Origin: a virus
IMG/VR virus record: IMGVR_UViG_3300010413_000025
Coordinates: 3,192-67,191 of that record
Strand: one strand, 5' to 3'
DNA: 64,000 nucleotides
Positions within the stretch are counted from its first letter, which is position 1; the number at the start of each line of letters is the position of its first letter. The notes below the pieces were generated by a model. That model saw only the letters and a program-made list of their open reading frames with translations, was not told where the DNA came from and ran no database searches. A program made the position numbers and the translations under genes. This document shows, in pieces, positions 1-64,000 of the stretch.

Positions 1-922
1 CCAGTGCGACGGAACCGATGCACGGCTGGTCGCGAAGGTTGTTTTCGACAGTGAACTGCACGTTCGTGAAACATGCGGCGGTATCGCTGACCGGAAGGCC
101 GTCCACCAGAATGTCGGTGATATTGTCGACCGCGTTCATCACATCCGCCACGGACACAGCCTGCGTGCCTGCGGCAGCGACCGACGCACTGGACGCCGTC
201 AGGTCCTTGCCTTGGAACGTGAACGAACCGCCGATGATCGCGCCCGGCGCCACGGTCAGTTCCATGGAACCGACACGCATCCCGGTGTAAAGCTGGTATT
301 CCAGCGGCGACAGGTCGCTGAACAGCTTTTCAATGGTGAAGGACTTCCGCGTGGTGCCGTTCTTGATGTAGGTCCCTTTCAGGGTACCCACGCCAGTGAT
401 CGTTTCGGCACTGGGCGGGGCCGGGGTAACCGTCAGGGTATGCGGCGAACCGGTGCCCTTTGCGGTTACCTTGTAGTACCCGTCGTTCGTCGGGGATGCC
501 GTCGAACCACCCATTTGCAAGAACTGACCGACAGCCACATTCCGCAGTGGGTCCGGGGAACCACCCGACACGATCAGCGTCGCGGTGTTGTTCAGCGGGG
601 ACGGCAGCACAATCTGGATCGTCAGACCGGTTTCGTTTACTGCGGTGGAAAAGTCGTCGTAAAGCCCGCCTGCCAGCAGTGCATCGTGCGAACCGTAGGA
701 CAATTCAATGCCCACGTCGCCACCTGCGCCGACCTGCGTGCGAACAATGTCGGAAACCTGCCGGTCACTCCGGATTTCTTCCGACTGCGTGGTTTGGATG
801 TTCTGGGTCAGGGATTCGTTTGTGAAGCGAAGTTCATTGATCACATCCGGGCTATTGTCCGGCGTGACGCCCCACTGCGTTTCCTCGACATAGAACAGTT
901 GTACAGAACTAGAATCAGACAT
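1..922 (-). CDS. Major tail tube protein (3' end truncated by window)
   Basis: Not in the ORF track. Hand translation from ATG at 922: MSDSSSVQLFYVEETQWGVTPDNSPDVINELRFTNESLTQNIQTTQSEEIRSDRQVSD...KSFTIEKLFSDL...YTGMRVGSMELTV, a typical tail-tube pattern. GGGAG SD upstream; follows the tail terminator gene. Confidence 0.85.
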   Translation of the reverse strand, partial: MSDSSSVQLFYVEETQWGVTPDNSPDVINELRFTNESLTQNIQTTQSEEIRSDRQVSDIVRTQVGAGGDVGIELSYGSHDALLAGGLYDDFSTAVNETGLTIQIVLPSPLNNTATLIVSGGSPDPLRNVAVGQFLQMGGSTASPTNDGYYKVTAKGTGSPHTLTVTPAPPSAETITGVGTLKGTYIKNGTTRKSFTIEKLFSDLSPLEYQLYTGMRVGSMELTVAPGAIIGGSFTFQGKDLTASSASVAAAGTQAVSVADVMNAVDNITDILVDGLPVSDTAACFTNVQFTVENNLRDQPCIGSVAL

Positions 923-952
923 TTAGCTGCACTCCCTGTTGCAGTGAAAACA

Positions 953-1378
953 TTATGGTGTAGGGTTCAAAACAAGGCTGTCCGACTGGAAAGGTGTCGA
1001 ACAGTTCCATTGCACCCATGCACCTGTCACACCGACGCGATTCAAAGCCGTTCCCCGGAAGATCACGCCGCTTACTGTTCGCCCTTCGAAAATGTCGGTG
1101 ACGCTGTCCGCCAGTTCCCGGGCTACACCGTCCCCACTCCCGGCGGGGACAAAAATCTGGACTTCCACCAGTCCGATGCGGCGAAACCGCCTGTACTTGC
1201 CCATGCCGACCTGACGCTGGTCGCCGGACAGTACGTGCAGCACCACGTACGGTTCGTTTTCCGGCGGCGTGAACCCGTCTACATCGCCGAAAGTGTATGT
1301 TGCGGGAACCGGACTGGACGCCGTCCACTGCGCTTCGAATCGTTCCCGAATTGTCTGTGCGTCCGATGCGTATCCCAT
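953..1378 (-). CDS. Tail terminator / tail-completion protein (DUF4128-like)
   Basis: 141 aa with G..VQIFVPAGSG...LAD motif; lies just before the tail tube. Confidence 0.75.
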   Translation of the reverse strand: MGYASDAQTIRERFEAQWTASSPVPATYTFGDVDGFTPPENEPYVVLHVLSGDQRQVGMGKYRRFRRIGLVEVQIFVPAGSGDGVARELADSVTDIFEGRTVSGVIFRGTALNRVGVTGAWVQWNCSTPFQSDSLVLNPTP

Positions 1379-1414
1379 GTCGAATTGTCCCTTTTTCGCG
1401 CGAAAACCGCAAGT

Positions 1415-2199: not shown

Positions 2200-2200
2200 G

Positions 2201-3669: not shown

Positions 3670-3696
3670 TCTGTGTTCACTCCCATTTCGTCAATC

Positions 3697-4768: not shown

Positions 4769-4803
4769 TGTATGCAAACTCCCTATGCTTGCGGTTCAGT
4801 AGG

Positions 4804-5610: not shown

Positions 5611-5670
5611 AGGTCCTTTACTCCCTAAAGGTAAGTGCGACGCCTGCCGCTAATTAGTGTTCAGACTGAT

Positions 5671-8852: not shown

Positions 8853-9056
8853 TCATTTCCCCAGTAGTGATTTCGTTTTGCGTTTGCCGACGCGCGCTGC
8901 CAGCGAACCCGGCTTGCCACTACTATGCGACAAGTTCTTGAAAAACACAACTTGCCGTTCCCGTTTCTGGGCCTGTTTCTTCGTGGGATAGCATCCCAGA
9001 TCGCGGCCCGTGGTGCGTGAAACCACGCAGAATTTACTGCCTTTGCGCTTGATCAT
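8853..9056 (-). CDS. Small basic hypothetical protein
   Basis: MIKRKGSKFCVVSRTTGRDLGCYPTKKQAQKRERQV; overlaps the portal stop. Confidence 0.6.
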   Translation of the reverse strand: MIKRKGSKFCVVSRTTGRDLGCYPTKKQAQKRERQVVFFKNLSHSSGKPGSLAARVGKRKTKSLLGK

Positions 9057-26537: not shown

Positions 26538-26567
26538 TTCGTTTCCCCTTTCTGGTTTCGGTCGGTG

Positions 26568-26624
26568 TTACTTAACTTAACGACCACAGTACAGGAAACT
26601 TTAGGGCATTGCAACAAAATTTTT
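26568..26624 (-). promoter_or_regulatory. Repeated early promoter (sigma28 + sigma70 composite)
   Basis: TAAAGTTT-N11-GTCGTTAA overlapping TTGCAA-N17-TACTGT. Confidence 0.75.
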
Positions 26625-26725
26625 CTGTTGCACCGAATGCAGGGCGGTCGGGGTCGGCGGCGGGTCGGGAATGGGCAGGATGTCGCCGCACCCCGCCACG
26701 ATCAGAATTGCCAGCAGGGCGCCCA

Positions 26726-29082: not shown

Positions 29083-29884
29083 CTGTCAGACTCATTTTAG
29101 GGAACATGTTCAGCGCCGTGTTCGGCGTCGCGTTGACGATTTCAATCCCGTAGTCTTCGGGCTTTATCGTCGCATAATTTTGAACGAATCCGGTGTATCC
29201 ACCGTTCCGCGCCAGTCCTTCAGGATGATCACCGAAAAAATGCTTTTTGTTGTTCACCACGCGCATGTTGTAGCCGCACAAAATAATTCGGTTAATCCCG
29301 AACAGGTAGGCCAGATTTATAAGCTGGTAGCCGCTGTTGTTTCCGAAATGGATCAGGTCCTGCTTTCTCGACAGTCCCTTTGCCCCGCAGCCTTTGATCC
29401 GCCGCAGGCCCGGGAACTGCGATTGCGGCATGTTCGGTTCCTGCGTCCACATTCCATGCGTGGTTTCGTATTCGCGGATATGTTCGAAGTGTTTCCGCCA
29501 CCATGCGAAATCGCAGGCATAGTGGACGTTCAAGTACGGCGCGATGCGATAGGCGTCATTGCACCCGAACAGGTAAAGTTCCTGCGTCAGCCGGGCGGCC
29601 ATGATTTCGTCCATAACTTCGGGGGTCAGGCCGGGGCCGGTCGCCATCAGGACGGCCGCCTTGCCTTCGAAATCCCGGGGAATGGTTTCCGGCTTGATGG
29701 GGTCCGGCGGTGGGCTGCGCCTGTGCTGTCCGCGAACGCCAGCGGCCTGACGGGGCTGTGCCTTCGCGGGAAGGTCCTTGATCAGGGAAACAGGCCCGGG
29801 CGCCGCAGACGGCCCCAGCTTCGGCCGCAGGTGGCGGTCTTCCGCTGTAGCACGAATATTTTTCAGTCGCTGCAAGCGAATCAA
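29060..29884 (-). CDS. Second Maf/DUF115-like glycosyltransferase (paralogue)
   Basis: LMATGPGL, GCND, NSGYQLINLAYLFG...LCGYNM, HFFGDHP, IVNAT. Confidence 0.75.
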   Translation of the reverse strand: MIRLQRLKNIRATAEDRHLRPKLGPSAAPGPVSLIKDLPAKAQPRQAAGVRGQHRRSPPPDPIKPETIPRDFEGKAAVLMATGPGLTPEVMDEIMAARLTQELYLFGCNDAYRIAPYLNVHYACDFAWWRKHFEHIREYETTHGMWTQEPNMPQSQFPGLRRIKGCGAKGLSRKQDLIHFGNNSGYQLINLAYLFGINRIILCGYNMRVVNNKKHFFGDHPEGLARNGGYTGFVQNYATIKPEDYGIEIVNATPNTALNMFPKMSLTDALQKFR

Positions 29885-43404: not shown

Positions 43405-43905
43405 CGGTAGTGACACCAGAACCGTGAATTCCCCGTGCCCGGCTTCGACCATTTCAACCGAATCCCAGCGGTCCATCAGCTTCGAAAACCACCATTCCGG
43501 CGGTTTCACCAAAATGTGCGTATTCCGGCCGTCCGGCAGGGTTTTATGCGCGTGTCGGGTCGCGATGTTCAGCAGGGCACATTCCCGGGCCAGCTGTTGC
43601 AGGTGGTCCAGCACGTCGTCGATGTATTCCGGTTCGATGTGTTCCAAAACATCGGTACATACGACGATGTCCGCAGGTTCCGGTGCAGTGCAGTGTTTCG
43701 GAATGGCCGGGTCGTACTGATTGATATGGAACGGCAGGGCAGCCGCCAGACGGCCTTTGCCGCAGCCGTAGTCCAGCACGTCGTCCGTGTCGTACTCTGC
43801 GCACAGGGTCGACACTGCGGTGACCCAGCGGGCGCCGCCGGTGCCGTATCCGGGTTTCGTGTTGTGCAGGATTTCGTTTTGCTTGCGATAGTCGTCGCTA
43901 ATCAT
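43381..43905 (-). CDS. Class I SAM-dependent methyltransferase
   Basis: VLDYGCGKG, YDPAI, DIVVCTDVLEHIEP, H..VKPPEWW. Confidence 0.85.
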   Translation of the reverse strand: MISDDYRKQNEILHNTKPGYGTGGARWVTAVSTLCAEYDTDDVLDYGCGKGRLAAALPFHINQYDPAIPKHCTAPEPADIVVCTDVLEHIEPEYIDDVLDHLQQLARECALLNIATRHAHKTLPDGRNTHILVKPPEWWFSKLMDRWDSVEMVEAGHGEFTVLVSLPKKIVAVG

Positions 43906-45479
43906 GCTACTTTTGCCTTTTCGCTGAATTTAGGGAACGGGTACCCGTTCAGGGATTGTTTGTTGCAAATTATCAGGCGCCGACGTGCCCGGGACGCGCC
44001 GACATAAAAAACCCGATGTTCTTCGTCGGCCGCGCGCAGGTTGTGGGCGTACATGCGGTGGGTCTGGCGGGACATGTCCGTTAATAGTAGCACGTTGTCG
44101 GCTTCGCCGCCTTTGACCTTGTGAATCGTTGACAGCGTGACGCGCGGGTTTTTCAGTGATTCACCGTGCCGCCTGACGCGCCGATAATAGTCGACTTTGT
44201 GCTGCGGGATTTTTTGCAGGATGTCCCACCAGTTCGCCGCCGGATCGGTCAGCAGGGAAAACTGGTCGCGCAGTTCATCGAACGAAAACTGGTCGGTATC
44301 TTCGACGTGTTCCATGCGCGCTTTGCCACCGTAGCCGATGTGTTTCTGCGTCCGCAGCAGGGCGAACAGCTGTTTCGCGCGTAGGCCGGAAATTTGCTTG
44401 CCCTGCGCCAGATTCGCCCACGCATGAATAGCGCCCATTTCGTCCGGCTTTATCACGTCGTAATTGCTGAACTTGATCGGAACGCCTTTGTTCATCAGCC
44501 AGCCTTTGATTGTGTTCAGGTGGTGTCCGTTACGCGCCAGCACCAGCCAGTCGCCGCCTTCCACAATGTCGACCGCGTACTTCACGTCGGCGATGCGGTA
44601 CACTTCGCCTTCGGTCCCATTGTGGGACCAGTCCTTTTCGTACCGTTCGCTGATCCGGTTCGACAGGTGATTTGCGACCATCCACGGCCTGCGCGGCAGC
44701 CGGTAGGACTTGTTCAGCACCTGTTTTTCGCCGTCAAGGTGCAGGAACTGCTGCACGTCGGCCCCGTTCCATTCGTAAATCGCTTGGTCGTCGTCACCTG
44801 CAATGTACAGTTCTTTCACGTCGCGAAACATCCAGTGAATGAAATCCCACTGGACGGCGGTCAGGTCCTGCGCTTCGTCGATTATCGCCACGTCCACGTC
44901 AATGGCCGGATATTCCAGATACACGGGTTCAATCATCAGGTCGGTGTAGTCGCGCAGGCCGTAGGTCTTTTTGTACTGATCCAGCGCCACGACCAGCCGC
45001 TTCAGTTCCTTGCCATACCGCCCGATGCTGTACTGCCATTCCAGCTGCGACATGCTGCGAACGTAATCGCGCAGCGTCATTTTCATGTTACGCGCGACGC
45101 TGATCACAGACAGCAGGTGATTCCCCAGATTGTTAGCGCGCGTTTCGGTCTTGCTGTCCGCGCGTTCGCCGGTCAGGCCCGGCAGCCCGATCAGCTGGCC
45201 TATTTCCTTGTATTGCGGCTTGTACATGTAGTCGTCTTGTTTCATGCCCATGACCATGGACGCCAGCGAATGCAGCGTTTTGAAGTATGGCATGTCTTCG
45301 CGTTCGAACTTGAACCGATCAATGGCCCGGTCCTGTGCTTCGTGCGCGGCTTTTCGCGTGAACGACACGTACGCGATGCGCTGCGGGGAAATCCCCGAAC
45401 GCATCTTTTCGTCGACGATGTTCAGCAGTGTCGTCGTTTTGCCGGTTCCCGGCGGTCCCAGAATGATTCGCTTGCGCAT
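43902..45479 (-). CDS. UvrD/Rep-like SF1A helicase
   Basis: GPPGTGKTT, SFTRKAA, IIDEAQD, AGDDDQAIY, STIHKVKGGEAD, YVGASRA. Confidence 0.92.
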   Translation of the reverse strand: MRKRIILGPPGTGKTTTLLNIVDEKMRSGISPQRIAYVSFTRKAAHEAQDRAIDRFKFEREDMPYFKTLHSLASMVMGMKQDDYMYKPQYKEIGQLIGLPGLTGERADSKTETRANNLGNHLLSVISVARNMKMTLRDYVRSMSQLEWQYSIGRYGKELKRLVVALDQYKKTYGLRDYTDLMIEPVYLEYPAIDVDVAIIDEAQDLTAVQWDFIHWMFRDVKELYIAGDDDQAIYEWNGADVQQFLHLDGEKQVLNKSYRLPRRPWMVANHLSNRISERYEKDWSHNGTEGEVYRIADVKYAVDIVEGGDWLVLARNGHHLNTIKGWLMNKGVPIKFSNYDVIKPDEMGAIHAWANLAQGKQISGLRAKQLFALLRTQKHIGYGGKARMEHVEDTDQFSFDELRDQFSLLTDPAANWWDILQKIPQHKVDYYRRVRRHGESLKNPRVTLSTIHKVKGGEADNVLLLTDMSRQTHRMYAHNLRAADEEHRVFYVGASRARRRLIICNKQSLNGYPFPKFSEKAKVA

Positions 45480-47050
45480 CAGAATTCCATGCGTTCGTCG
45501 ACTTGCGGCACCGCGCTTTCCGGGTCTTTCGTCACGAAGTCTTCCGGAACCAGCCAGTAGTTCAGCTTTTTGTTGCCGGTAGTGGTCGTTTCTTTCTTTT
45601 CGACGCCCAGATTGTGCAGCTGCTGCCACAGCCCGCTGGCAGTCGTGTTCGGGAACCGCTGCTGCTGAAGATATTTCGAAAAAGCTTCGAAATGGAACAG
45701 GAATTTGTTGTTTTCGAAAAGTACCATTCCGGTCAGTATATCACGCCGCGACTTTGCTTCGGGCGCCGTTTCGATGAAGTCCTTCAGCATAGTGCCCAGA
45801 CTGGCGGTCGACGTGTATTCATACGGGATTTCGATCACTTCCCGATTCACAAGCCAGTGCTGAATCATCTGGTCCCACATTGCATTGTTCATTCGCGGCG
45901 GCATCTTGTCCAGAACTTCAAAAACCTTTTCGCGGAATTTCACATTATTGGTCAGTTCAGCCCGCTGAAACTTCACGTCCTGCCCGTTTATCGACATGAT
46001 GTACTGCGGCGGTTCGTCAGTAACGACAGCCCCGGCAGCGTTCACCTGCACGATCTTTCGGACGCCTTCAATGTTCCAGTCTTCCCAGACCTGAACTAGA
46101 CCGCCCATAACTCCGAATTCACGGGTCTGGCATAGTGGTTTGTTGCAGACTTCCATGCAGACCGCATCCTTGCACAGATAGCCGTACTCCCGGTCTGTAT
46201 CCAGTGACTTGAAGATGGTCGCAGTGATTTCGCGCATGGGCAAGGCCGGGCTGAAGTAGTCGCCGTTCCACTCTATGACCTTGTCCTGCCATTCGTCGGG
46301 GTATTTTTTCTTTGCGTATATGGCGAACTGGAACAGTGCTTTGTTCCGCCCGCCTTCGCCGACGCCATTGTGCGCCATGGTCTGAATGCACGGCGGCCCG
46401 TCACTGAATGGAATTTCCTGCTGGTGAATTTCCAGCTTGTCGAAATCGGCGGGACTGATCCGCTTGCTTTCCGCGTAGTCCAAGAATTTTTCGAAATCAG
46501 CAATCGGCTTTCCCGCGTCGTCGAATGCGTACCGCTGCGTCATTTCGGCGTCGAAGTACGGGAGGTTTATCCAGTTCCCGACTTCACCGTTCGCGGCGTC
46601 TAGCTTTTCCTGTTTCGGGAAGATTTCGATTTTCGGGTATCCCAGCATCCTAGCCAGTTCGCCCAGCTTCGCGCGAATTTTCGCTGCGTTCGCCGGTTCC
46701 GAAAAGAAAATGTAAAGGTGGGCGCCGCCAGACTTTGACTTTGCCCAGACGATAGGGAACCCGGACCGCTTTGCATCGGTCACGAATCGTTTCACTGTGG
46801 GTTCATCGTACACGTCGAAATCAATCGCTGCGAATTCGCACGTGCCGTCGTCGTGGATCGGAACTACGCCCAGACCAGATTTGCCCGTCAGGTGGGCTTC
46901 CCATTTTTCGGTCGTTACAGGTTCGGCGACTGTTTGCGCGCGACCGCCGATCTTTCCGGACTCTTTTTGCAGGTTCCGGTCTTCCCGGTATATACCATGC
47001 GCGCGCGTCAGGCCGCTAAACAGCCGACTGAATCGTTCTATCTTGTCCAT
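45479..47050 (-). CDS. AEP-family primase/primase-polymerase with PriCT-like domain
   Basis: AIDFD, SKSGGAHLYIF, EIFPKQ, GNWINLPY, PPC...EGGRN. Confidence 0.85.
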   Translation of the reverse strand: MDKIERFSRLFSGLTRAHGIYREDRNLQKESGKIGGRAQTVAEPVTTEKWEAHLTGKSGLGVVPIHDDGTCEFAAIDFDVYDEPTVKRFVTDAKRSGFPIVWAKSKSGGAHLYIFFSEPANAAKIRAKLGELARMLGYPKIEIFPKQEKLDAANGEVGNWINLPYFDAEMTQRYAFDDAGKPIADFEKFLDYAESKRISPADFDKLEIHQQEIPFSDGPPCIQTMAHNGVGEGGRNKALFQFAIYAKKKYPDEWQDKVIEWNGDYFSPALPMREITATIFKSLDTDREYGYLCKDAVCMEVCNKPLCQTREFGVMGGLVQVWEDWNIEGVRKIVQVNAAGAVVTDEPPQYIMSINGQDVKFQRAELTNNVKFREKVFEVLDKMPPRMNNAMWDQMIQHWLVNREVIEIPYEYTSTASLGTMLKDFIETAPEAKSRRDILTGMVLFENNKFLFHFEAFSKYLQQQRFPNTTASGLWQQLHNLGVEKKETTTTGNKKLNYWLVPEDFVTKDPESAVPQVDERMEF

Positions 47051-55178: not shown

Positions 55179-58100
55179 TTATTCAGCCGTCGGAACGGTG
55201 CTTGTGAATGGTTCCATAACGCCCCACGCGTACAGTTCGCCGGTGGTGGTGTCTTGTATCCTGAAAAAGATCGGTCGACCCACCCGGTGAAAATGCAGGA
55301 TATTTACGTGGTGCCCAGCCCAGTTCGACGGGCTGCCGTTCTGCAAATTGTTGAAAATATATTGCGAATCTGGGGACGACAGGGAATAGTCGTGCACCAG
55401 CTGCGCAGGGGACCCATCATCGGACAGAATAAATAGCTTGCCCTGATCACCTGACCCCGTGCCTTCGTCGAACTGTGCGCCTACCGCGAACTTCAGTGTC
55501 AGGTTCGGGATCACCTGCGGACTTCCGGGCGAACCGGCCTTGAACACTTCAATGCCCGGCGACACGACTGTGCCGTACGGGATGCGACCCAAATATTTGT
55601 CTGGGGCATAGTCGGCGTCACTTACTAGCTGGAATTCATGAATGCACGCGTCGCGCGATTCCTGCCCCGGGCTGGTCAGGCGATGTTTCGCTAATATTTC
55701 GATGCGAAGCTGGGCGCCATTAGGCTGTAGAACCATCGCCATTAGATCATTAGGCGGAATGTTCTTGAGATAGTTGGTCGGATCATCGGCCGGGGTTTCA
55801 TATTCATAGATGAAATTCGGGCTGCCGATGTTCGGGCTTGAAATGTCGTACATGCGGATTATATAGGACAATCCGTCGCCTGCGTCGGTGGTGCCGGGAT
55901 TGAACGTGGTCCCGTCGCTGTTTTCACCCTTCACAGATTTTTGCGCGCCTAGTGTCCGCCAGTTCCGGCGTGTCCATGACACCTGCATATAGGACGACGT
56001 GGCGTACAGCGGCACCGATTTATTGTATCTACTGCTGCCTATTGTAATTTCATTCGGGCATAGCGGCGCGTTTACACGAAAGCCGTCATGGATTCGTGTC
56101 ACGTTCGTGATGGTGGCCGATCCCACGCCCAGCGCCCCGCTTTCCTGCGTCGACGGGCATATTTTCGCGGCCACGTAGAAGTTGTTCGTAAATTGTTCGG
56201 ACGAAATGCTGGCGCCGCCAAAAGATACGAACCAGACCAGCGAACCAGCGGGCCAGTCCTGCACGCGGGAATCAAGGGCGCCGCGCCAGCAATCGAACAG
56301 CCTAATGCCGGTAACTAGCGGGGACCCACCGACGCTTTCTACTGCCTGCGTGTACAGTATGAATTCACCAAAATCGCGCAGTTGATCCGGTGAATTCACA
56401 GTGGGCGGCGTTATGTATACCAGTGACAGCAGGTCGTCAATTTCACTTTCCGATAAGGCGTCCGCGTCGATCAAATCAGCCAGTGATTCACCGGGAAGCG
56501 GGTCCACATCATAATCGCCAGCCCCCTGCGTCGCGACGCTTCCGCTTAACGGGCCGGGCAAGGCTGACCGCAGCTGCCCCACCAGAACGAAGTTCGGATT
56601 CGTGCCGTTGTTTATGAATGTGCCAGTGATCGCACCGGACGCCGACGTTGCTTCATGCGTGTAAAGGTCGTATTCGTCGCCAGCGCCACCGGTAAGACGC
56701 GGCAAGGCTGTGATGCGCGGCGTTTTGTCCGGATTGTCCGGGTCTTGCAGCTGCATCAGTCGCGGCGTTTCGAATATCACTTGGTCTTCCGGGTCTTCGG
56801 CAGTAACTGTCTGCGTCGGTGCCGACCAGCTGCTGTCGATAGGGTCGTGGAAACTGGCCGCCTGCGTGGTGAACACGTCTTCAACTGCGTCGATGGTGAT
56901 TTTGTTATTCAGTAGTTCGCCGTAATTGACGCGCGTCGCGCGCATCAGCAGGTCGGTGATGCCGTACAAGTCCCACGACAGCAGGAACAGGTCGCCCGGC
57001 TTGATGGTGTACAGTTCGCGGTTCACTGTCAGGGTAGCTTTCGCCAGCGGCGTGGCCAGATTGCGCAGGTCCCGCCATGCGATGTAATTCGCAAGCGCGG
57101 CGTTCTTGACGCCCATAAAATTTTCGGTAACAGTGATGGGCGCGCCCTGAATGATTTTGTTCGCCATGTCCTGCGCCAGCCCGTAGCTTGTCGCGTAGTT
57201 CTTGCCGGGGTCAGCGTACTGAACCCGAACAATGTTTTTCGTTTCGGACCACGATCCACGGCTGAATTCGACTTTCTTGCAGTTGGTTTCGTCGATTGAC
57301 AGCAAAGACGACAGCGGGCTGGGAATATCCGCTTCGCGGATCAGTTTGAACGTGTACTGGCCGGTCGTGATGTCGCGCTGAAGAACGCCGTCGCACTGCC
57401 GTTCGATTTCCTGAATGATCTGTTCAGTTTTTTTCGGGTTATCCAGCAGCGCGGAAAATCCGTTTCCTTCCGCCGCCAGCGTAGCGCCCACAGCGGCCAG
57501 TGTCGTGGTGTCGATGTCGCCAGTCGACCGGGCCAGACCCCATTCGGTGTTCGTCAGGATTTCATACAGGACGTTCATCGGGTTCGCGTCAAAGTTATTT
57601 ATCAGCGCATCAGCGCCCAACGATAGGCCGTCGGGAATGCGGCGAACCACGAACTTGAACGGACGCAGCGACGGACTGTTGCCGATGTAAATTTGTTCCG
57701 CTACAAGGTACGCCGTCCCGCGATATGCGGGCAGGATGTCAGGGGAAAACGTCACGGCCCCTTCCAGATAGGTGCTTTTCACCTGCGTGCTACTGCCGGG
57801 AAACATGGTAAACGTGCCACTGATTCCGCCACTGTCCTGACCGAACAGGGTCGGTTCGTTGACTGTCACTGACCCGCTTGCGACCGCTGACAATGGGGAC
57901 GTATCGTAAATAGATTCGTCGTCGACAAGAATTTGCATCAGGCCGTCGTCGGCGCCAGTCATCGGACCACGGCAAAACGCGAACTGAATCCCGACGTAGT
58001 ATTTATAGCCGACCGTGACTTTCTTCGATGAAAACATGCCGGTTTTGATCTTTTCGCGAATGCGTTCCGTGCGCAGATCACCGTACCAGATAATATTCGG

Positions 58101-58274
58101 CGCCGACAGCTGGACCGTTCCCCACAGTAGTGGGACCACGCGCCCTTCAGTGGCGGTCGGAAAATTGAAATCGCCCAGTCCTGACGGCCGGGCGTTTTCG
58201 ACTTCGGGTTTCGGTGCGAACAGTTCGGAAAGAATGAACGACGCGACCCAGATCGCTAGATATACCCAAAACAT
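55179..58274 (-). CDS. Tail tip / central tail protein (Phage-tail_3-like)
   Basis: FPTATEGRVVPLLWGT, PAYRG, DANP..LYEILTNTEWGL; SP-rich C-terminal extension. Confidence 0.85.
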   Translation of the reverse strand: MFWVYLAIWVASFILSELFAPKPEVENARPSGLGDFNFPTATEGRVVPLLWGTVQLSAPNIIWYGDLRTERIREKIKTGMFSSKKVTVGYKYYVGIQFAFCRGPMTGADDGLMQILVDDESIYDTSPLSAVASGSVTVNEPTLFGQDSGGISGTFTMFPGSSTQVKSTYLEGAVTFSPDILPAYRGTAYLVAEQIYIGNSPSLRPFKFVVRRIPDGLSLGADALINNFDANPMNVLYEILTNTEWGLARSTGDIDTTTLAAVGATLAAEGNGFSALLDNPKKTEQIIQEIERQCDGVLQRDITTGQYTFKLIREADIPSPLSSLLSIDETNCKKVEFSRGSWSETKNIVRVQYADPGKNYATSYGLAQDMANKIIQGAPITVTENFMGVKNAALANYIAWRDLRNLATPLAKATLTVNRELYTIKPGDLFLLSWDLYGITDLLMRATRVNYGELLNNKITIDAVEDVFTTQAASFHDPIDSSWSAPTQTVTAEDPEDQVIFETPRLMQLQDPDNPDKTPRITALPRLTGGAGDEYDLYTHEATSASGAITGTFINNGTNPNFVLVGQLRSALPGPLSGSVATQGAGDYDVDPLPGESLADLIDADALSESEIDDLLSLVYITPPTVNSPDQLRDFGEFILYTQAVESVGGSPLVTGIRLFDCWRGALDSRVQDWPAGSLVWFVSFGGASISSEQFTNNFYVAAKICPSTQESGALGVGSATITNVTRIHDGFRVNAPLCPNEITIGSSRYNKSVPLYATSSYMQVSWTRRNWRTLGAQKSVKGENSDGTTFNPGTTDAGDGLSYIIRMYDISSPNIGSPNFIYEYETPADDPTNYLKNIPPNDLMAMVLQPNGAQLRIEILAKHRLTSPGQESRDACIHEFQLVSDADYAPDKYLGRIPYGTVVSPGIEVFKAGSPGSPQVIPNLTLKFAVGAQFDEGTGSGDQGKLFILSDDGSPAQLVHDYSLSSPDSQYIFNNLQNGSPSNWAGHHVNILHFHRVGRPIFFRIQDTTTGELYAWGVMEPFTSTVPTAE

Positions 58275-58276
58275 TT

Positions 58277-59098
58277 TTATTCCTTCGTCAGCTGTTGTTT
58301 GTTGAACGGGTTAATCGACGGCACGAACGGAAACCCGCCATAATTTAGCACATTATTGAACTTCTGCGCGCAGGTAGTCACGGAATGATCGCACCCCTGA
58401 TACGCGTACAGGGTGCCACCAGACACGTTTTGCTTGAACGGGTACAGGATGCGAACCTGCGTCCCTGACTGGTCGATGATCAAGCGCGATTCCGATCCGT
58501 CCGGCAGCGAAACATACCCACCGATGAACGGGGACCCGGTAGTTGGCAGCGCCTGAATGGTCAGCAACACGTCATCGGTTACGCCTAGCACCTTTCCGCT
58601 GTGCAGGTAGGACCCTTCAGACAGGCCGCAGCCGCTGTCGTACAGAATATGGTTGCACAACCCCTGAAAACTGAACCGTGGCATTTCCCGGGTGAACAGT
58701 TCGTTGTTCGGTATGCACCGCAATTCGCAGATTTCGTCCTTGAATGCGACACTGGCCACGTATCCCGCGAACATGATAATCGACGCGGTGGCCGGGACCG
58801 AATTCGGCTGGATGCGGTACACGGTCACGTTCATGATGTACGACGGTTGCACGGCGATGAAGTTCGTCGCAATTACGTCGTCGGTGGGAATCTTGATGGT
58901 GATCGAAGTCGACTTTTGTTCCTTCGCTTCCTGATATGCCGTGCGCTTTATGGCCACCGGCGTGTAGTCGACACCGCTGTATGTCACGGTCCCTTCGGAA
59001 CTGGTCCGACGGTAGGTCGTCCCCGAAATCTGGAATTCGTACAGTTCAATCGGGCGCGAATCTTCTATGCTGACTTCAAGCTGGTCTAAGGTACTCAT
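58277..59098 (-). CDS. Tail assembly protein (DUF2163/BR0599 type)
   Basis: PIELYEF, C..ILYD..CG, GCDH...C..KFNN..NYGGFPFVP. Confidence 0.85.
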   Translation of the reverse strand: MSTLDQLEVSIEDSRPIELYEFQISGTTYRRTSSEGTVTYSGVDYTPVAIKRTAYQEAKEQKSTSITIKIPTDDVIATNFIAVQPSYIMNVTVYRIQPNSVPATASIIMFAGYVASVAFKDEICELRCIPNNELFTREMPRFSFQGLCNHILYDSGCGLSEGSYLHSGKVLGVTDDVLLTIQALPTTGSPFIGGYVSLPDGSESRLIIDQSGTQVRILYPFKQNVSGGTLYAYQGCDHSVTTCAQKFNNVLNYGGFPFVPSINPFNKQQLTKE

Positions 59099-60978
59099 AC
59101 GTCATACGCCCCGCTAACCGGTACATTTATTTCGCTGTCGATCTGGTCGCCCATTAGATCGGTCCATTTATGTAACAGGTCCACGGTATCGCTGTCAAAT
59201 CGCGACTTGATCATGAACTGAATCGACAGGACGTTTGCGGCGGTGAAGTCCATCGGAAAGGTCGGCGAAACAGACAGCCGTTCCACATCGGTGGATACTT
59301 CAGTGCTGGAAACGATGTCTAAAAACATGTAAGTCTGACCGTCTTCCCAGTTGTGCGGACTGCCAATAGGAAACGGGCTGGCGACCGACGGCATGTTGTT
59401 CGGGTCAAACTGTATCACGATGGTGGTGTACGGTTCGCGCGACTTCATGAACTGCGTGTACCCGACGTTTGTCACGTCTATGGACCCTGACCCGACACTG
59501 ACGGCGGCCTGCAATTCCAAATCCTTGCCGAAAGTCGGCAAATAAAACGACGTTTGCTTGCCGTGCAGTGCATACAGCAGGTTCCGCACTTCCCAGCTTT
59601 TTTGTGCCGTTTCCACGTTCCAGCGTTTTTCGCTGGTGGGCGTCGACCTGTCTTCGGTGGACGACTGTGCAATTTCGCCGGTATCGCCGTCGATTCTGGT
59701 GATCTTTTTCCGGAAGTTTTCCCGAATTTCGTTGTCCATAAAGTTCAGGTCGTCGATCACAGTGCGGCCATTCCACGATTTGAACGCCGTCGCGTCTTCG
59801 GTAGCGCGCGCATCGTTGTCGACAGACAGGAACGACATTGTCACTTTTTGCTGTCCAGCTGGCAGGCGGGATCGCGCCACGCCATCGCTGACCACGCCCG
59901 GGACCACAGGGACCAGCACCGCCTGCCCGGCTGTATACGCGTTCTGAATGCCCGACGTGAACGTGACCTGCGCCGGGGACGCCGACACCGCGCTGATTTC
60001 CAGTGTGTCGGCAGTGCGATTCCCGTCCGCGTCGTATGCAATCAGAACCGCCAGACCGCCAACGCGGAATTCAGCAAAATCCGTCGACGTGATCGAAACC
60101 ACCGTGTCACTGATCACCGCATTAGCCGTCAGTAGTCGCGCATCCCACCACATCGGAACGCCGAAAACACGGCTGTGCCAGTCGAAAATAAACGAATTGA
60201 ATTCATTCCGATCATAATCGCGCGGCAGTAGTGCTTCGAATTCGATTTGCTGACGTGGAAACCGGCGAAGTGCCACGCGCTGTTCAGTGCCGTCGGCCGC
60301 CTTCATAATGTCGGTTTTCCATACCAGCCGTTCTTTGACGCTGCCAGTCGGCGAAAAACCGTACAAAATTATGCGCGTTCCGGTGATCGGAACGCTGACG
60401 CTAGTCGTGTCAAAGGCGAAGTCCAGTGTCCCGTTGATCGTAGGCGGACCCGACGGGGAAATTTGAACACTTACCACAAAAGACGTTTGCGCCACAATAG
60501 TTTTCGGTAAAGTGGGCAGGTTCAGGATAGTGATACCGCCGCCAGCATTGTTCGTGAATGTCGTCCATGTGCGGTCGTCAGTGCGGTAGGCACTGTACAG
60601 TTCAAGGTCCTTCAGAATGTTCGACACGACGTTGCCCAAGTCTAGCCGCTGCGGCTTAACGTGAATTCGTTCGAACCAGTCGAATCCGATCCCCTGCCCG
60701 TCGTATGGCGCCTTGCCTATATTCTTTTCGCGGGCGTGGCGGTTCCCCCGCTGCGTATTCGCAAACACGTCGACGATGTTCTGCGCACGAAGTTGTGTCG
60801 GCCGAAATACAGCGTTTGACACTTCAAACGGGCCAGACACATGCGGCAGGGGATCAGGGTAAGGTAGCACCATTGTTCCGGGCGCCACCTGTTTGACCTG
60901 TTGTGTCGGCCAGTGCGAAGTCGATTCCGCGAAAGTGATTCGCAGCGTCGACGAAAATGTGCCTTTGAATGTAGCCAT
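59095..60978 (-). CDS. Distal tail / virion structural protein
   Basis: ERL.WKTD.....GTEQR.ALR..PR; LYALHGKQ.SFYLPT. Confidence 0.75.
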   Translation of the reverse strand: MATFKGTFSSTLRITFAESTSHWPTQQVKQVAPGTMVLPYPDPLPHVSGPFEVSNAVFRPTQLRAQNIVDVFANTQRGNRHAREKNIGKAPYDGQGIGFDWFERIHVKPQRLDLGNVVSNILKDLELYSAYRTDDRTWTTFTNNAGGGITILNLPTLPKTIVAQTSFVVSVQISPSGPPTINGTLDFAFDTTSVSVPITGTRIILYGFSPTGSVKERLVWKTDIMKAADGTEQRVALRRFPRQQIEFEALLPRDYDRNEFNSFIFDWHSRVFGVPMWWDARLLTANAVISDTVVSITSTDFAEFRVGGLAVLIAYDADGNRTADTLEISAVSASPAQVTFTSGIQNAYTAGQAVLVPVVPGVVSDGVARSRLPAGQQKVTMSFLSVDNDARATEDATAFKSWNGRTVIDDLNFMDNEIRENFRKKITRIDGDTGEIAQSSTEDRSTPTSEKRWNVETAQKSWEVRNLLYALHGKQTSFYLPTFGKDLELQAAVSVGSGSIDVTNVGYTQFMKSREPYTTIVIQFDPNNMPSVASPFPIGSPHNWEDGQTYMFLDIVSSTEVSTDVERLSVSPTFPMDFTAANVLSIQFMIKSRFDSDTVDLLHKWTDLMGDQIDSEINVPVSGAYDV

Positions 60979-60979
60979 C

Positions 60980-61966
60980 TTAGGTCGTCACTTTTTTGTA
61001 CGCTACCCCGAAATTGTACGACTGTTCCTGATCATAGGATAACCCGTTGTTGCCTTTGCGCGTGATCGGGAAAACCACCCAAGTGTCAGCGCCTACCGTC
61101 ACTTCCTGCGCGGTAATTAGGCCGTACATGTTTATCCAGCGAATGTCGGGAACGTAACCCATTAAGGCGTAAGTGTCCGGCGCCACAAACGTGTTCGCGT
61201 AAAACAGGGGGATGGGGATCAGGGGCTTGAAGCCATTCAAGTCGCTGCTGCGATTAGCCATAAACTGCACGTGCGCGCCACCGCGCCAGCCGCCGGGCGC
61301 AAGTTGCCCTATCGCGTCGCCGTCATCGTCCGGCGTTGTGTATCCGCTGTAGTTGCGAAAATATTTCGTATTCGCATCGTATAGGCCAGTCATACCGGTG
61401 ACATGCAGTCCAGCGCCGCGAACCGTGCTGCTTAAATTCAGGCCGTCGAAGTGCGCTTGGTGCTGCGTGCTTGTTGGGTTGTCAATCGTCGATGCTGTCT
61501 GCTGCCAGTAGTGCGTGTAGGCGTACGCGCCACCTTTCAGGTCACCCAACAAAAACGCATTCCCGAAACCAAAATGCCGATATAGACCAGAACTTATTTC
61601 AACGACCACGTGGCAGTAGGTATCGTCTTCGAAAAAATGATACGACGGAAACGGCCCTGTCATGATGTTGCAGTATCGACAGGACGTGATCGTGCTGCTG
61701 GTAAATTCGCAAGCGGTCTGACTGGTCCATACCACGTCGCCGACATAGCCGCCGATCATAGCCACGCCCAAATATCCCGACGCGTTGTCCCACTGGACCT
61801 GTATCAAACGCGACATGGTTTCTGGCGATGTCGGTTTACTCCATACGGCGCGCCGGTTTGTCGCGTTGAACAAATTGTTCGTCCAGCCGGGCGTACCCGT
61901 CAGGAACGTGTTCAACTTCGACATTAAGTCGTCAAGGTCTGTCGCTGATCCGCTTTGATAACTCAT
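60980..61966 (-). CDS. Virion tail structural protein
   Basis: MSYQSGSATDLDDLMSKL...YRHFGFG...TWVVFP; ATG 61966. Confidence 0.75.
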   Translation of the reverse strand: MSYQSGSATDLDDLMSKLNTFLTGTPGWTNNLFNATNRRAVWSKPTSPETMSRLIQVQWDNASGYLGVAMIGGYVGDVVWTSQTACEFTSSTITSCRYCNIMTGPFPSYHFFEDDTYCHVVVEISSGLYRHFGFGNAFLLGDLKGGAYAYTHYWQQTASTIDNPTSTQHQAHFDGLNLSSTVRGAGLHVTGMTGLYDANTKYFRNYSGYTTPDDDGDAIGQLAPGGWRGGAHVQFMANRSSDLNGFKPLIPIPLFYANTFVAPDTYALMGYVPDIRWINMYGLITAQEVTVGADTWVVFPITRKGNNGLSYDQEQSYNFGVAYKKVTT

Positions 61967-61968
61967 GT

Positions 61969-63051
61969 TTAAGTGTCCCTTACTGCCATGAACGACCATG
62001 GGTCGGTTCGGTGTACGTTTTGGAAAATAAGATACCGCTGCGCTGGACTTACGCCGTAGTCCCATATTTCGTCTTCGGCGGTTATGCCGCCGTTGTTGTG
62101 CATCCAGTATATTCCGTCCAGTTCGCCCAGCATCTGATAACTTGGATCGTTCCAAAGAATCGACAGCGGCCACAGGGTTGTGATCGGGTCAGGGCTTCCG
62201 GGCGTCTGCACCAGATACGCGGTCGGCGTGCCGCCAGCACTCGTCGCATGGAATAGGTCGTAGAATGTTCGTGTCGTATCCGTGGTCCTGTCGTCCGTAT
62301 TGTATAGGGTGTAATTGTAAGAACATATCGGCCACATTTGCCGCTTGTATACTGCGCCGAAATTGGAACCAGTTCGATAGCCGTTTTTGATCGGGTACCA
62401 CTGACCATCGACAAATCGCACGTACAGACACGATTCACCAGTTCCCGGGACTTCGTCACTGTTACCCATCGGAATGGCGCCGGTGCTGAAGTCCAGTGAA
62501 TTGCTATTAAACGCAAACGTGTTCGTCCAGCTGCTACCCATGACAGCCAACGGATATGGGTACTCCGATTCCGTAGCGAATGGGTTAATGAACCCGGCGT
62601 ACATCCACTGGTAGGCGGTACCAGTCTTCACGACTATGATCACGCGGCGTTCGTTCGCCCAGAACCAATACGACATGGACGTGTTCTGCAAAGGGATGTA
62701 AACCGATTTGCTGGCGTCAGGCTGATCGGCGAACAGCACGGAACCTTCCGGGCTGCCGGGGCTAAATCCGGTGAAACCTTTCAGTGCCCAGCCATAAATA
62801 CTGCCGCCCGGGTCTTCATAAGACTGAATGCCGAAGTAGAAAAGCCGCGACGGGGACCCGCCGTTGCTGGCGTCCCCTTCAAAGATCATTTCCTGAACAT
62901 TCGGCGACGGATACACGACAGGGCTTCCCGCCGGGGTCGTATCGCGCACCGCCGTATATGGCGACGGCGACCCGACGGAACCCGTCAGGAAGTCCCGCAG
63001 GTGAATCATCAGGTCCAGATAATCAGTTGCTGTTCCAGTTGCTTTTGCCAT
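61969..63051 (-). CDS. Virion tail structural protein (SP-rich)
   Basis: MAKATGTATDYLDL...YPYPL.V.G...LGELDG; related to the downstream gene. Confidence 0.75.
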   Translation of the reverse strand: MAKATGTATDYLDLMIHLRDFLTGSVGSPSPYTAVRDTTPAGSPVVYPSPNVQEMIFEGDASNGGSPSRLFYFGIQSYEDPGGSIYGWALKGFTGFSPGSPEGSVLFADQPDASKSVYIPLQNTSMSYWFWANERRVIIVVKTGTAYQWMYAGFINPFATESEYPYPLAVMGSSWTNTFAFNSNSLDFSTGAIPMGNSDEVPGTGESCLYVRFVDGQWYPIKNGYRTGSNFGAVYKRQMWPICSYNYTLYNTDDRTTDTTRTFYDLFHATSAGGTPTAYLVQTPGSPDPITTLWPLSILWNDPSYQMLGELDGIYWMHNNGGITAEDEIWDYGVSPAQRYLIFQNVHRTDPWSFMAVRDT

Positions 63052-64000
63052 TAGCTTAATGCCCTTTTAACTGCGTCAGGATTCGTCTGAATCACGTTTA
63101 GAATCGCTTTTGTGCCCTGCGCGCTTTCGATTGCGCCGACCATAGACGCCGGGTCGACCACGTTCGTGATATTCACAGGAACGTCGACCTGCGGCGCCTG
63201 ACCGCCACCCATACCGCTGGTGGGAACCACTGTGCCGTCCTGTTTCGGAATGAACAGTTCCGGCTTTCCGGTTTCGCCCACCATGGCCGCCTGACCCGCC
63301 TGCAAGGGTCCGCCGTTTGCGCGCGCCGCGAAGGCACCCCCGATGCTTGTCAGAATGCTGCCGAATCCACCGCCAGCTGCACCGCCTGCCGCGCTGAAAA
63401 GTTTCTGCAATATCATATTCGACAGGGCTTCGGCTGCCATCTTCCGCAGCGAATCGGCGAATCCTTTCACCATGCCATCCAAACCGCCTTGGAACGGATT
63501 AAACAGAAAATCCGCGAAGGTGGACTGGATGTTGCGCGCCGCCTGTATGCCGAATTGTTCCATTGCTTTAGCGGCCGGGTCAAGTTTCTTTTTCGATTCA
63601 GCCAGATCGTCGTTCGCCTTCGTGACCGCACGACCGAAAGTTTCCGCGTTAATAGCGCCCTTGTTCAGCAGGTCCGTGTAATGGATTACGGTCGCGTTGT
63701 ATTCTTCCTGCGGCGTGCGCAGGGATTCCAGCAGGTCTTTCCCTTCCTGCATCAGTGCGATGCGCTTTTGTAGTTCGGGGTTCGCGGCGTTGTAAGCTTC
63801 GCCCGCCTTCGTGATCGCAGCCGCCGCCTGTTCTTCGCTGATCCGGTCGGACAGCAGCAGGGTATTGATCTTGTCCAGTTCCTTTTCGTACACGTACAGG
63901 GGGTCGACAGCGGCCTTCAGGGATTCCGCCTGCTGATCCAGCGCCTTCGCCAGCTTCGCCGCCGCCTTCGCTTCAGCGTCCAGTTCCGCCTGCGTCTTGC
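63051..64000 (-). CDS. Tape measure protein (5' part outside window)
   Basis: Ala-rich helical repeats; ARANGG...VGETGKPELFIP...NITNVVD C-terminus; frame open to the window end. Confidence 0.88.
   Translation of the reverse strand, partial: KTQAELDAEAKAAAKLAKALDQQAESLKAAVDPLYVYEKELDKINTLLLSDRISEEQAAAAITKAGEAYNAANPELQKRIALMQEGKDLLESLRTPQEEYNATVIHYTDLLNKGAINAETFGRAVTKANDDLAESKKKLDPAAKAMEQFGIQAARNIQSTFADFLFNPFQGGLDGMVKGFADSLRKMAAEALSNMILQKLFSAAGGAAGGGFGSILTSIGGAFAARANGGPLQAGQAAMVGETGKPELFIPKQDGTVVPTSGMGGGQAPQVDVPVNITNVVDPASMVGAIESAQGTKAILNVIQTNPDAVKRALS

What the first reader, a model, noticed from the sequence alone, without database searches (positions are those of the whole stretch)
1..64000. 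Genome-wide, strand- and frame-independent avoidance of the trinucleotide GAG/CTC
Seen: 3 GAG or CTC in bases 1-960 and 0 in 30001-30600 by hand count, against roughly 3-4 per 100 nt expected at ~60% GC. Other stretches inspected look the same. Glu is almost always GAA, and most ribosome-binding sites are AAAGGGGA instead of AGGAG. GGGAG is kept mainly at highly expressed structural genes, and many survivors are GAGT/ACTC. Because both strands and all frames are affected, selection is on DNA, not on tRNA supply. Inference: escape from host defences with GAG-containing targets (restriction-modification, BREX or DarT-like), or self-avoidance of a phage nuclease or of the Mom-like modifier.
Basis: partly seen in the sequence, partly recalled or inferred. 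Interest (0 to 1): 0.75.

Follow-up and report, generated by a model that had tools for sequence, protein, structure and literature searches.

The report
Phage genome purged of GAG/CTC
This bacteriophage has removed almost every copy of the three-letter DNA word GAG (and its complement CTC) from its whole genome, even rewriting its ribosome-binding sites, which points to an as yet unknown host defence that reads this very short word.

Summary
The window holds 70 GAG/CTC against about 1577 expected (z about -40). The whole 67-kb phage genome holds 73 against 1688. All frames and both strands are affected: Glu is GAA 1086 to GAG 26, and off-frame sites number 21 against about 565 after synonymous shuffling. 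Shine-Dalgarno words are rewritten (AAGGAG 0, AAGGGG 36).

It is not an artefact. Independent metagenomic relatives show the same depletion, graded from 0.06 to 0.57. Closely related phages with the same replication genes have normal GAG (0.9).

Depletion tracks total loss of CCWGG (rho 0.82), loss of many 6-bp palindromes (29 of 64 absent here), and a shared tail module. Survivors are mostly GAGT or TCGAG and are not conserved between relatives.

I found no DNA methyltransferase, no Mom homologue and no nuclease gene that co-varies with depletion.

Best reading (about 0.55): persistent selection by a host DNA-targeting defence whose core target is the 3-bp GAG, added to ordinary restriction-site avoidance. 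I know of no bacterial system with this specificity; the nearest precedents are chlorovirus Nt.CviQII (R^AG) and the G6mAG reader VchI. The host is unidentified, probably Pseudomonadota.

The parts
1..64000 (.). Genome-wide depletion of GAG/CTC: 70 sites in the window against about 1577 expected. It is uniform along the genome (1-11 sites per 4 kb against about 85-117 expected).
931..935 (-). Surviving Shine-Dalgarno GGAGT, 10 nt upstream of the tail tube gene start (Phage_tube_2).
4778..4782 (-). Surviving GGAGT immediately upstream of the major capsid gene (Gp13-like, 3740-4777). Similar GGAGT sites lie at 3679-3683, 5620-5624, 10767-10771 (portal) and 48949-48953.
26541..26625 (-). One of 6 copies of an 85-99-nt intergenic element that ends in the GAG-free RBS AGAAAGGGGAAA before ATG. 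The other copies are at 39372-39456, 40527-40611, 41606-41690, 42535-42619 and 43321-43405.
45479..47050 (-). AEP-type primase gene with the densest cluster of survivors: 5 sites in about 850 nt (46111, 46187, 46271, 46562, 46961). In relative L006 the same primase/helicase module has a normal GAG content.
55179..63893 (-). Tail module (Phage-tail_3 protein, BR0599/gp84-like hub and four neighbouring genes). Among the five relatives' contigs fetched whole, it is found only in the GAG-depleted G001 and G002, not in the non-depleted G003-G005.
29881..31827 (-). DNA polymerase A, part of the replication core that is shared with non-depleted relatives (48-56% identity). This shows the depletion is not tied to the replication machinery.

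Best explanation
The phage lineage has been under long, strong selection against the duplex DNA word GAG/CTC. The selecting agent is a DNA-targeting defence of its unidentified host population, probably Pseudomonadota. The core target of that defence is the 3-bp GAG, read less well when followed by T(A) or preceded by TC.

Each site lowers infection success a little, so sites are removed one by one through synonymous changes. No amino-acid change is needed in any frame. Removal extends to Shine-Dalgarno sequences, where GGAG becomes GGGG (a G.U wobble with the anti-SD; this step is inferred).

The phage carries no detectable DNA methyltransferase. It uses the same strategy against CCWGG and about 29 palindromic hexamers.

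Shown here: the depletion, its DNA-level nature, its inheritance and lability in relatives, and its co-variation with classical restriction-site loss. Inferred: that the agent is a host nuclease or nickase of restriction-modification type, that it acts per site, and that the adenine is the discriminating base.
For: 1. The size and frame-independence of the depletion.
2. Independent assemblies of relatives show it at graded strength. G001 is at 0.06, L070 at 0.06, L003 at 0.18, L010 at 0.23, G002 at 0.27, L020/L023 at about 0.45 and L006 at 0.57. G003, G004 and G005 share the polymerase, capsid and glycosyltransferase cluster but are at 0.90-0.95.
3. On the portal tree (41 rows) depletion appears in at least two subclades and differs between sister groups: L004/5/7 at about 0.3 against L016-18 at about 0.9.
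4. In the 20-row clade the GAG ratio correlates with the CCWGG ratio (Spearman 0.82, not corrected for phylogeny). All 9 rows with GAG at or below 0.35 have zero CCWGG.
5. This genome lacks 29 of 64 palindromic hexamers entirely while the other 35 are near or above expectation. G001 and G002 lack other, partly overlapping sets.
6. The tail module is shared only with depleted genomes.
7. L006 is a mosaic. About 4 kb carrying primase and helicase has normal GAG (53/57, 53/54, 44/44) beside a depleted backbone at about 0.3.
8. Survivors are transient. In 30,210 aligned nt of 43 orthologous genes, G000 has 34 sites and G001 has 40, with only 2 at shared positions. The commonest counterpart is GAA.
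9. The same flank tolerance (+1 T, +2 A, -2/-1 TC) is seen in G000, G001 and G002, as expected of one agent with flank preferences.
10. No other short asymmetric word is avoided. At k=4 no GAG-free word is at or below 0.25; at k=5 only CCWGG is.
11. No DNA methyltransferase or Mom was found among the 73 ORFs scanned.
Against: - The host is unknown, so no cognate enzyme, methylase or host methylome could be examined.
- I know of no bacterial restriction system with a 3-bp target (recalled; literature searches found none).
- A host with such a nuclease would have to protect roughly one site per 30-40 bp of its own DNA.
- With about 1700 sites, an efficient cutter would leave no intermediate fitness to select on. 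The agent must therefore be weak per site, which is an added assumption.
- GAGT is tolerated better but is still 8-fold depleted (43 against 363), so a simple GAGV rule does not fit.
- The correlation with CCWGG and the tail module is not phylogenetically independent.
- G001 is only 68% complete and G002-G005 57-89% complete, so absences in them are weak evidence.
- About 20 small ORFs were not scanned against any family library.
Confidence: 0.55

Rival explanations
1. Modification-dependent (Type IV-like) restriction. Some hosts methylate GAG, or adenines broadly. Other strains carry a reader-nuclease of G6mAG, so any GAG becomes a liability whatever its methylation state, and the word is purged.
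For: A winged-helix/HNH protein of Vibrio cholerae (VchI) binds G6mAG in duplex DNA, with exactly this 3-bp specificity (bioRxiv 10.1101/2025.05.22.655678, whole text read). A squeeze between restriction of unmethylated sites and restriction of methylated sites would explain why avoidance is used rather than a phage methylase. No methylase was found.
Against: VchI showed no cleavage in that preprint. No GAG-specific bacterial methylase is known to me. If TCGA-methylating hosts were involved, TCG6mAG would be a target, yet TCGAG is the best-tolerated left context. Nothing here shows that the phage DNA is methylated.
Confidence: 0.12
2. Pile-up of several longer targets that all contain GAG. These could be Type IIS, Type III or BREX sites, or Type I systems with a constant GAG half-site and variable partner half-sites. 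Only removal of the shared core escapes them all.
For: The phage clearly faces a very large restriction repertoire: 29 absent hexamers, CCWGG, RGATCY 0/46 and GGCAGA 0/23. In the partly depleted G002 the contexts differ strongly, from CTGAG 2/59 to TCGAG 93/128. Type I half-sites are 3-4 bp, for example EcoAI GAG(N7)GTCA (recalled).
Against: In G000 and G001 all 16 NGAGN contexts are depleted to 0.01-0.24. Apart from GAG words, no asymmetric 4-mer is at or below 0.25 and only CCWGG is at k=5. At least four unrelated specificities would all have to share GAG by chance. The flank preferences are the same in three diverged genomes.
Confidence: 0.12
3. Self-avoidance. The phage makes a GAG-specific nuclease or nickase that shreds host DNA for nucleotides, and a GAG-free genome is its way of sparing itself.
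For: The phage has nucleotide-salvage genes: dNMP kinase, dCMP deaminase and an HD-domain protein. Many ORFs have no known function. Chloroviruses do encode frequent nickases such as Nt.CviQII, R^AG (PMC3017599, passages).
Against: No nuclease domain was found in any scanned ORF. Outside the tail module, the only genes shared with depleted G002 and absent from G003-G005 are two small proteins (124 and 115 aa) with no nuclease likeness. This reading does not explain the co-variation with CCWGG and palindrome loss. It also does not explain why depletion is graded from 0.06 to 0.57.
Confidence: 0.1
4. Another cause: CRISPR PAM avoidance, DarT-type ADP-ribosylation, a Mom-type modifier, a context-specific mutational bias, or a sequencing or assembly artefact.
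For: GAG is one of several tolerated type I-E PAMs (recalled). GAA/TTC is enriched (1.52), as a G>A bias at GAG would give.
Against: - PAM: 73 sites remain, so spacers could still be acquired. Published PAM depletion is weak (recalled).
- DarT: TNTC is at 1.05.
- Mom: there is no homologue, and CAGNY is at 1.84.
- Mutational bias: all frames are cleaned by synonymous routes and Glu is kept. Where G003, G004 and G005 have Glu-GAG (245, 163 and 90 columns), G000 has Glu-GAA in 100, 78 and 42, and Gly is not enriched.
- Artefact: independent metagenome assemblies show the same depletion.
- Type III-like orientation escape: sense GAG to CTC is 57:16 here but 39:34 in G001 and about 1:1 in G002.
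Confidence: 0.05

Closest known systems
Classical restriction-site avoidance in phage genomes (4-6-bp palindromes; the literature by Sharp 1986, Rocha et al. 2001 and Rusinov et al. 2018 is recalled, not read here)
   Same: Depletion far beyond composition, on both strands and in all frames. It varies between related phages. In this genome it is accompanied by total absence of CCWGG and of 29 of 64 palindromic hexamers.
   Different: The word is only 3 bp long and asymmetric. About 1600 sites had to be removed rather than tens. A whole codon (GAG), most of another (CTC) and the canonical SD core were given up.
Chlorovirus frequent-cutter nicking systems: Nt.CviQII (R^AG) with M.CviQII (AG), and Nt.CviPII (^CCD) (PMC3017599, passages)
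   Same: They prove that site-specific nucleases with targets of 3 bp or fewer exist, paired with a protecting methylase. RAG includes GAG.
   Different: They are encoded by viruses of eukaryotic algae and protected by methylation, not by avoidance. Here AAG is not depleted (1.17), so the target is GAG, not RAG. No such gene was found in the phage.
VchI, a winged-helix/HNH protein of Vibrio cholerae that binds G6mAG (bioRxiv 10.1101/2025.05.22.655678, whole text)
   Same: It has exactly the same 3-bp word, read on duplex DNA by a bacterial protein with the architecture of a modification-dependent restriction enzyme.
   Different: It needs the methylated adenine and showed no cleavage in vitro. 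No link to this phage, its relatives or their host was shown.
Type III restriction escape by site orientation in T7 (EcoP15I sites all in one orientation; recalled)
   Same: An asymmetric target for which only one strand carries an adenine.
   Different: No consistent orientation bias among survivors: 57:16 here, but 39:34 and about 1:1 in G001 and G002. The word is removed, not oriented.

Membership tests
Restriction-site avoidance (anti-restriction by loss of target sites) | The word is depleted beyond mono- and dinucleotide and codon expectations | tested here: met
   70 against 1577 (z -40). Ratio 0.043. Off-frame sites 21 against about 565 after synonymous shuffles.
Restriction-site avoidance (anti-restriction by loss of target sites) | Depletion is independent of strand and reading frame (duplex DNA is the target) | tested here: met
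   Sense-strand GAG 57 and CTC 16, against about 879 and 697 expected. All three frames and the intergenic SD sites are affected.
Restriction-site avoidance (anti-restriction by loss of target sites) | A host enzyme with that specificity exists | not testable with these tools
   The host was not identified. The genome-contig scan gave one mis-binned MAG contig. Lysin relatives carry only 'Gammaproteobacteria bacterium' labels at about 50% identity. No E. coli match over the one 25-kb stretch searched, window 25001-50000.
Restriction-site avoidance (anti-restriction by loss of target sites) | Depletion varies with host rather than with phage backbone | tested here: inconclusive
   It co-varies with the tail module, CCWGG loss and palindrome loss, and differs between sister clades. 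Hosts are unknown and the rows are not independent.
Target of an R^AG nickase (Nt.CviQII type) | Both AAG and GAG are avoided | tested here: not met
   AAG/CTT 1941 against 1657 (1.17). GAG is at 0.04.
DarT2 (ssDNA thymidine ADP-ribosylation) target avoidance | A four-base motif with T at positions 1 and 3 (TNTC) is avoided | tested here: not met
   TNTC 1889 against 1799 (1.05). TTTC is at 1.44. Only TCTC, which contains CTC, is low. The motif is taken from PMC11543638 (passages).
Mom-type adenine modification (phage Mu) | A Mom homologue is present in the phage | tested here: not met
   tblastn of Mu Mom (from NC_000929) gave no hit in G000 at E<=10. The best phmmer E was 0.24.
Type III-like restriction escape by orientation | Remaining sites lie in one orientation | tested here: not met
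   57:16 in G000, largely explained by the supply of GAA codons. 39:34 in G001 and 200:177 in G002.
Modification-dependent G6mAG restriction (VchI-like) | Phage DNA carries m6A at GAG in some hosts, and hosts carry a G6mAG reader-nuclease | not testable with these tools
   No methylome and no host genome. The sequencing-run tool was unreachable.

The most novel reading that the evidence does not exclude
There is an undescribed bacterial immune system whose specificity is just the 3-bp word GAG. It acts weakly per site, by nicking, binding or slow cleavage, so that harm scales with site density. It has driven a whole clade of phages to recode their genomes: one Glu codon and one Leu codon abandoned, and the Shine-Dalgarno core changed from GGAG to GGGG. 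The graded series of relatives (0.04 to 0.9) captures this recoding in progress.
Probability: 0.45. Interest if true: 0.85.

Novelty: new variant of a known kind. Interest (0 to 1): 0.75.

Why it matters
Motif avoidance is the footprint that defence systems leave in phage genomes, and this footprint is unusually large. One 3-bp word is reduced 25-fold, a codon is given up, and translation signals are rewritten. The footprint does not match the specificity of any bacterial system known to me.

It therefore predicts a concrete, searchable thing: a GAG-specific methylase, nuclease or reader in the hosts of this clade. It also provides a natural series of related phages, from untouched to fully purged, in which the rate and route of genome recoding under defence pressure can be measured.

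It also shows how far a phage can recode at no protein cost. That is relevant to how restriction avoidance is modelled, and to host prediction from k-mer signatures.

Tried and rejected
1. Sequencing or basecalling artefact (GAG read as GGG or GAA). Rejected because independent metagenome assemblies share the depletion. Conserved Glu columns are Glu-GAA here, not Gly. The G002 rows contained about 30 off-frame codons from my mapping and were not used.
2. Mom-like modifier: no homologue.
3. DarT-like and R^AG-like targets: their motifs are not avoided.
4. Type III-style orientation escape: no consistent bias.
5. Phage nuclease. Nine family searches covered 73 window ORFs, of 94 predicted in the whole genome, and found no nuclease or DNA methylase domain. 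The two small proteins co-distributed with depletion (P0001, P0002) gave only phage families of unknown function.
6. Link to the glycosyltransferase/FkbM/MptE-like cluster or the nucleotide-salvage genes. Rejected because non-depleted relatives carry them too.
7. Named relatives. Pseudanabaena phage Pan1 (first 50 kb) has GAG at 0.78. The nearest isolates are only 30-40% identical in portal, tail and gp34-like proteins.
8. Host identification failed.
9. The tail-protein search for unrelated phages of the same host found only members of the same clade.
10. Literature searches for trinucleotide or GAG avoidance in phages found nothing relevant. One search failed on term format.
12. The look-up of sequencing runs was unreachable. 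No read-level check or microdiversity test was done.
13. No supplementary files were consulted.
Full report
WHAT THE WINDOW IS

The window is bases 3192-67191 of a single-contig virus record of 67,191 bp, 57% G+C. My own gene calls used a self-trained codon model and gave 92 ORFs, to which I added two by hand. They put 90 of 92 genes on the minus strand.

Recognisable genes, in window coordinates, all on the minus strand:
- Replication: DNA polymerase A (29881-31827), two SF1 helicases, an AEP-type primase (45479-47050) and an SNF2 helicase.
- Nucleotide metabolism: dNMP kinase, dCMP deaminase and an HD-domain protein.
- A glycosyltransferase/FkbM/MptE-like cluster (27039-29884).
- Packaging and head: small and large terminase, portal (9053-10756), a Mu-F-like head protein and the major capsid protein (3740-4777).
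- Tail and lysis: tail tube, a GH108 lysin, and a GTA-like distal tail module (55179-63893).

No tRNA gene was found. The nearest named phages are distant. DNA similarity is limited to about 68-75% over parts of the polymerase gene. Portal, tail and gp34-like proteins are 30-40% identical to those of Bordetella, Xanthomonas, Pseudomonas, Dinoroseobacter and Pseudanabaena phages.

THE OBSERVATION

- The window has 15 GAG and 55 CTC. 200 first-order Markov simulations gave a mean of 1577, SD 38 and a minimum of 1480, so z is about -40.
- For the whole genome the both-strand count is 73 against 1688 (0.043). The next lowest trinucleotide is at 0.62.
- Glu is coded GAA 1086 times and GAG 26 times, although Lys and Gln prefer the G-ending codon. 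Leu CTC occurs 6 times.
- Out-of-frame GAG and CTC number 4, 10, 4 and 3. Shuffles that permute synonymous codons within each gene gave 105, 162, 86 and 213; no shuffle fell below 81, 138, 68 and 185.

It is uniform along the genome. The longest GAG/CTC-free stretch in the window is 4794 nt.

CONSEQUENCES FOR TRANSLATION SIGNALS

- Of 94 predicted starts, 27 have GGGG and 15 have AAGGGG in the SD window. Only 5 have GGAG, and every one of these is GGAGT.
- The sense strand holds 0 AAGGAG and 36 AAGGGG. Non-depleted relatives hold 22-42 AAGGAG.
- Several early genes share an 85-99-nt upstream element that ends in AGAAAGGGGAAA.
- That GGGG pairs with the anti-SD through a G.U wobble is my inference.

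WHAT THE SURVIVORS LOOK LIKE

- 43 of 73 survivors are GAGT, and 19 of those are GAGTA.
- 13 of the 20 CGAG survivors are TCGAG.
- GAGT is still 8-fold depleted (43 against 363). GAGA, GAGC and GAGG are at 0.02-0.03.
- The same tolerance for +1 T, +2 A and -2/-1 TC is seen in two relatives, G001 and G002.
- Survivors are not conserved. In 30,210 aligned nucleotides of 43 orthologous genes, this genome has 34 sites and G001 has 40, with 2 at shared positions. The usual counterpart is GAA.
- They therefore look like recent mutations awaiting removal, not protected functional sites. The handful of GGAGT SD sites are the exception.

RELATIVES

Portal searches of viral contigs gave 48 loci, and one more came from a MAG. 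Five contigs were fetched whole.

GAG observed/expected values:
- 0.06 in G001 (51 kb) and in L070
- 0.18 in L003
- 0.23 in L010
- 0.27 in G002 (64 kb)
- 0.28-0.33 in L004 and L005
- about 0.42-0.47 in L014, L015, L020 and L023
- 0.54 in L009
- 0.57 in L006
- 0.90-0.95 in G003, G004 and G005

G003-G005 share the polymerase, the capsid, the terminase and the glycosyltransferase cluster with this genome.

On a portal tree of 41 rows, depletion occurs in at least two subclades and differs between well-supported sister groups. L006 is a mosaic. About 4 kb encoding primase and helicase has normal GAG, next to a backbone at about 0.3. These independent assemblies rule out an artefact of this record. 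So does the codon comparison: where G003, G004 and G005 have Glu-GAG (245, 163 and 90 aligned columns), this phage has Glu-GAA in 100, 78 and 42, with no excess of Gly.

CONTEXT: WHOLESALE SITE AVOIDANCE

- This genome has no CCWGG (about 120 sites expected) and no RGATCY (46 expected).
- It lacks 29 of the 64 palindromic hexamers, while the other 35 are near or above expectation.
- One asymmetric hexamer, GGCAGA, is also absent (0 against 23).
- G001 and G002 lack different, overlapping sets of hexamers.
- In the 20-row clade the GAG ratio and the CCWGG ratio correlate (Spearman 0.82). All nine rows with GAG at or below 0.35 have no CCWGG. This correlation is not corrected for shared ancestry.
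- Among the fetched contigs, the distal tail module is shared only by the depleted genomes.

BEST EXPLANATION

The phage carries no detectable DNA methyltransferase. It escapes DNA-targeting host defences by losing their target words. One of those defences has GAG as its core target.

Because GAG and CTC can be removed from every frame by synonymous changes, the cost is borne by codon choice and SD strength, not by proteins. The constant flank preferences across three diverged genomes point to one agent with flank-dependent efficiency rather than many unrelated ones. So does the absence of any other avoided short asymmetric word.

An efficient cutter would leave no viable intermediates with hundreds of sites. 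I therefore infer an agent that is weak per site, such as a nickase, a slow nuclease or a binder. The graded series of relatives fits such stepwise purging.

I put this reading at about 0.55. The host could not be identified, so the enzyme itself is entirely inferred.

RIVALS

- A methylation-dependent reader. VchI of V. cholerae binds G6mAG, exactly this word, but did not cleave in vitro. I put this at about 0.12.
- A pile-up of longer GAG-containing targets, or Type I systems sharing a GAG half-site. This is about 0.12, weakened by the uniform depletion of all 16 NGAGN contexts.
- Self-avoidance of a phage nuclease. This is about 0.10. There is no candidate gene, and it does not explain the link with CCWGG.
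- Other causes together are about 0.05. They are CRISPR PAM avoidance, DarT (TNTC at 1.05), Mom (no homologue, and CAGNY enriched), mutational bias and artefact.
- An R^AG nickase of the chlorovirus type does not fit, because AAG is not depleted.

COMPARISON WITH WHAT IS KNOWN, AND NOVELTY

This is restriction-site avoidance in kind. It is unusual in degree and in the length of the word: 3 bp and asymmetric, about 1600 sites removed, a codon abandoned and SD cores rewritten.

Four full-text searches found no report of trinucleotide or GAG avoidance in phages. Subscription journals and supplements were not covered. The closest molecular precedents are the chlorovirus nicking systems with targets of 3 bp or fewer (PMC3017599, passages read) and VchI (preprint, whole text read). 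I rate it a new variant of a known kind, with interest of 0.75.

LIMITS

- The host is unknown.
- The relatives' contigs are incomplete, at 57-89%.
- Gene starts are my own predictions.
- About 20 small ORFs were not scanned against any family library.
- The CCWGG and tail associations are not phylogenetically independent.
- The read-level check could not be run because the tool was unreachable.

Noticed in passing
window 1-64000 (whole genome): 29 of 64 palindromic hexamers are completely absent, for example CCGCGG 0/55, GCCGGC 0/46, CGATCG 0/36, GGGCCC 0/28 and TTTAAA 0/12. CCWGG is 0/120, RGATCY 0/46, and the asymmetric GGCAGA 0/23. The other 35 palindromes are near or above expectation, and CAGCTG is at 74 against 12. 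This bimodal, all-or-nothing pattern is itself remarkable.
   Followed up: partly
window 26541-26625, 39372-39456, 40527-40611, 41606-41690, 42535-42619, 43321-43405 (functional strand: minus): Six copies of an 85-99-nt intergenic element lie upstream of small early-region genes. Each has an A/T-rich promoter-like part, an inverted repeat, and then the RBS AGAAAGGGGAAA and ATG. It is probably a repeated early promoter and leader.
   Followed up: no
window 27039-29884, minus strand: A cluster of a glycosyltransferase, an FkbM-type methyltransferase and two MptE-like proteins lies next to the DNA polymerase. It is conserved in all four relatives whose contigs cover the region (39-52% identity), whether or not they are GAG-depleted. 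Its function is unknown; glycan or DNA hypermodification is possible.
   Followed up: partly
L006:1-4000 against L006:4000-13047: This is a mosaic relative. The primase/UvrD-helicase module has normal GAG content (53/57, 53/54, 44/44 per 2 kb), next to a backbone at about 0.3. Its portal is identical to that of the depleted L004 and L005. It looks like a recent recombinational import that has not yet been purged.
   Followed up: partly
G001 (contig behind L001; loci L049-L051): None of the 73 surviving GAG sites has G at position +3 (27% expected). AGAAG/CTTCT is at 4 against 63. This suggests further asymmetric targets in that phage's host.
   Followed up: no
G002 (contig behind L007; loci L052-L055): It lacks 23 palindromic hexamers, partly different from those missing here. 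CAGCTG, GGCGCC, GGTACC, CCATGG and TGGCCA are absent there but common or over-represented in the window's genome. This points to different restriction repertoires within one phage clade.
   Followed up: no
L009 (contig CAZVMT010000088.1): An 11.7-kb contig with a portal 73% identical to this phage's sits in a MAG labelled Bathyarchaeia. It is almost certainly a phage contig binned by mistake, and is not evidence of an archaeal host.
   Followed up: no
window 31817-33154, 34210-36714, 19531-20661 (minus strand): A RecD-like SF1 helicase and several large ORFs of unknown function (334, 376 and 211 aa) have no counterpart in any of the five fetched relatives. No nuclease domain of any kind was recognised in the 73 ORFs scanned, which is unusual for a phage of this size.
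   Followed up: partly
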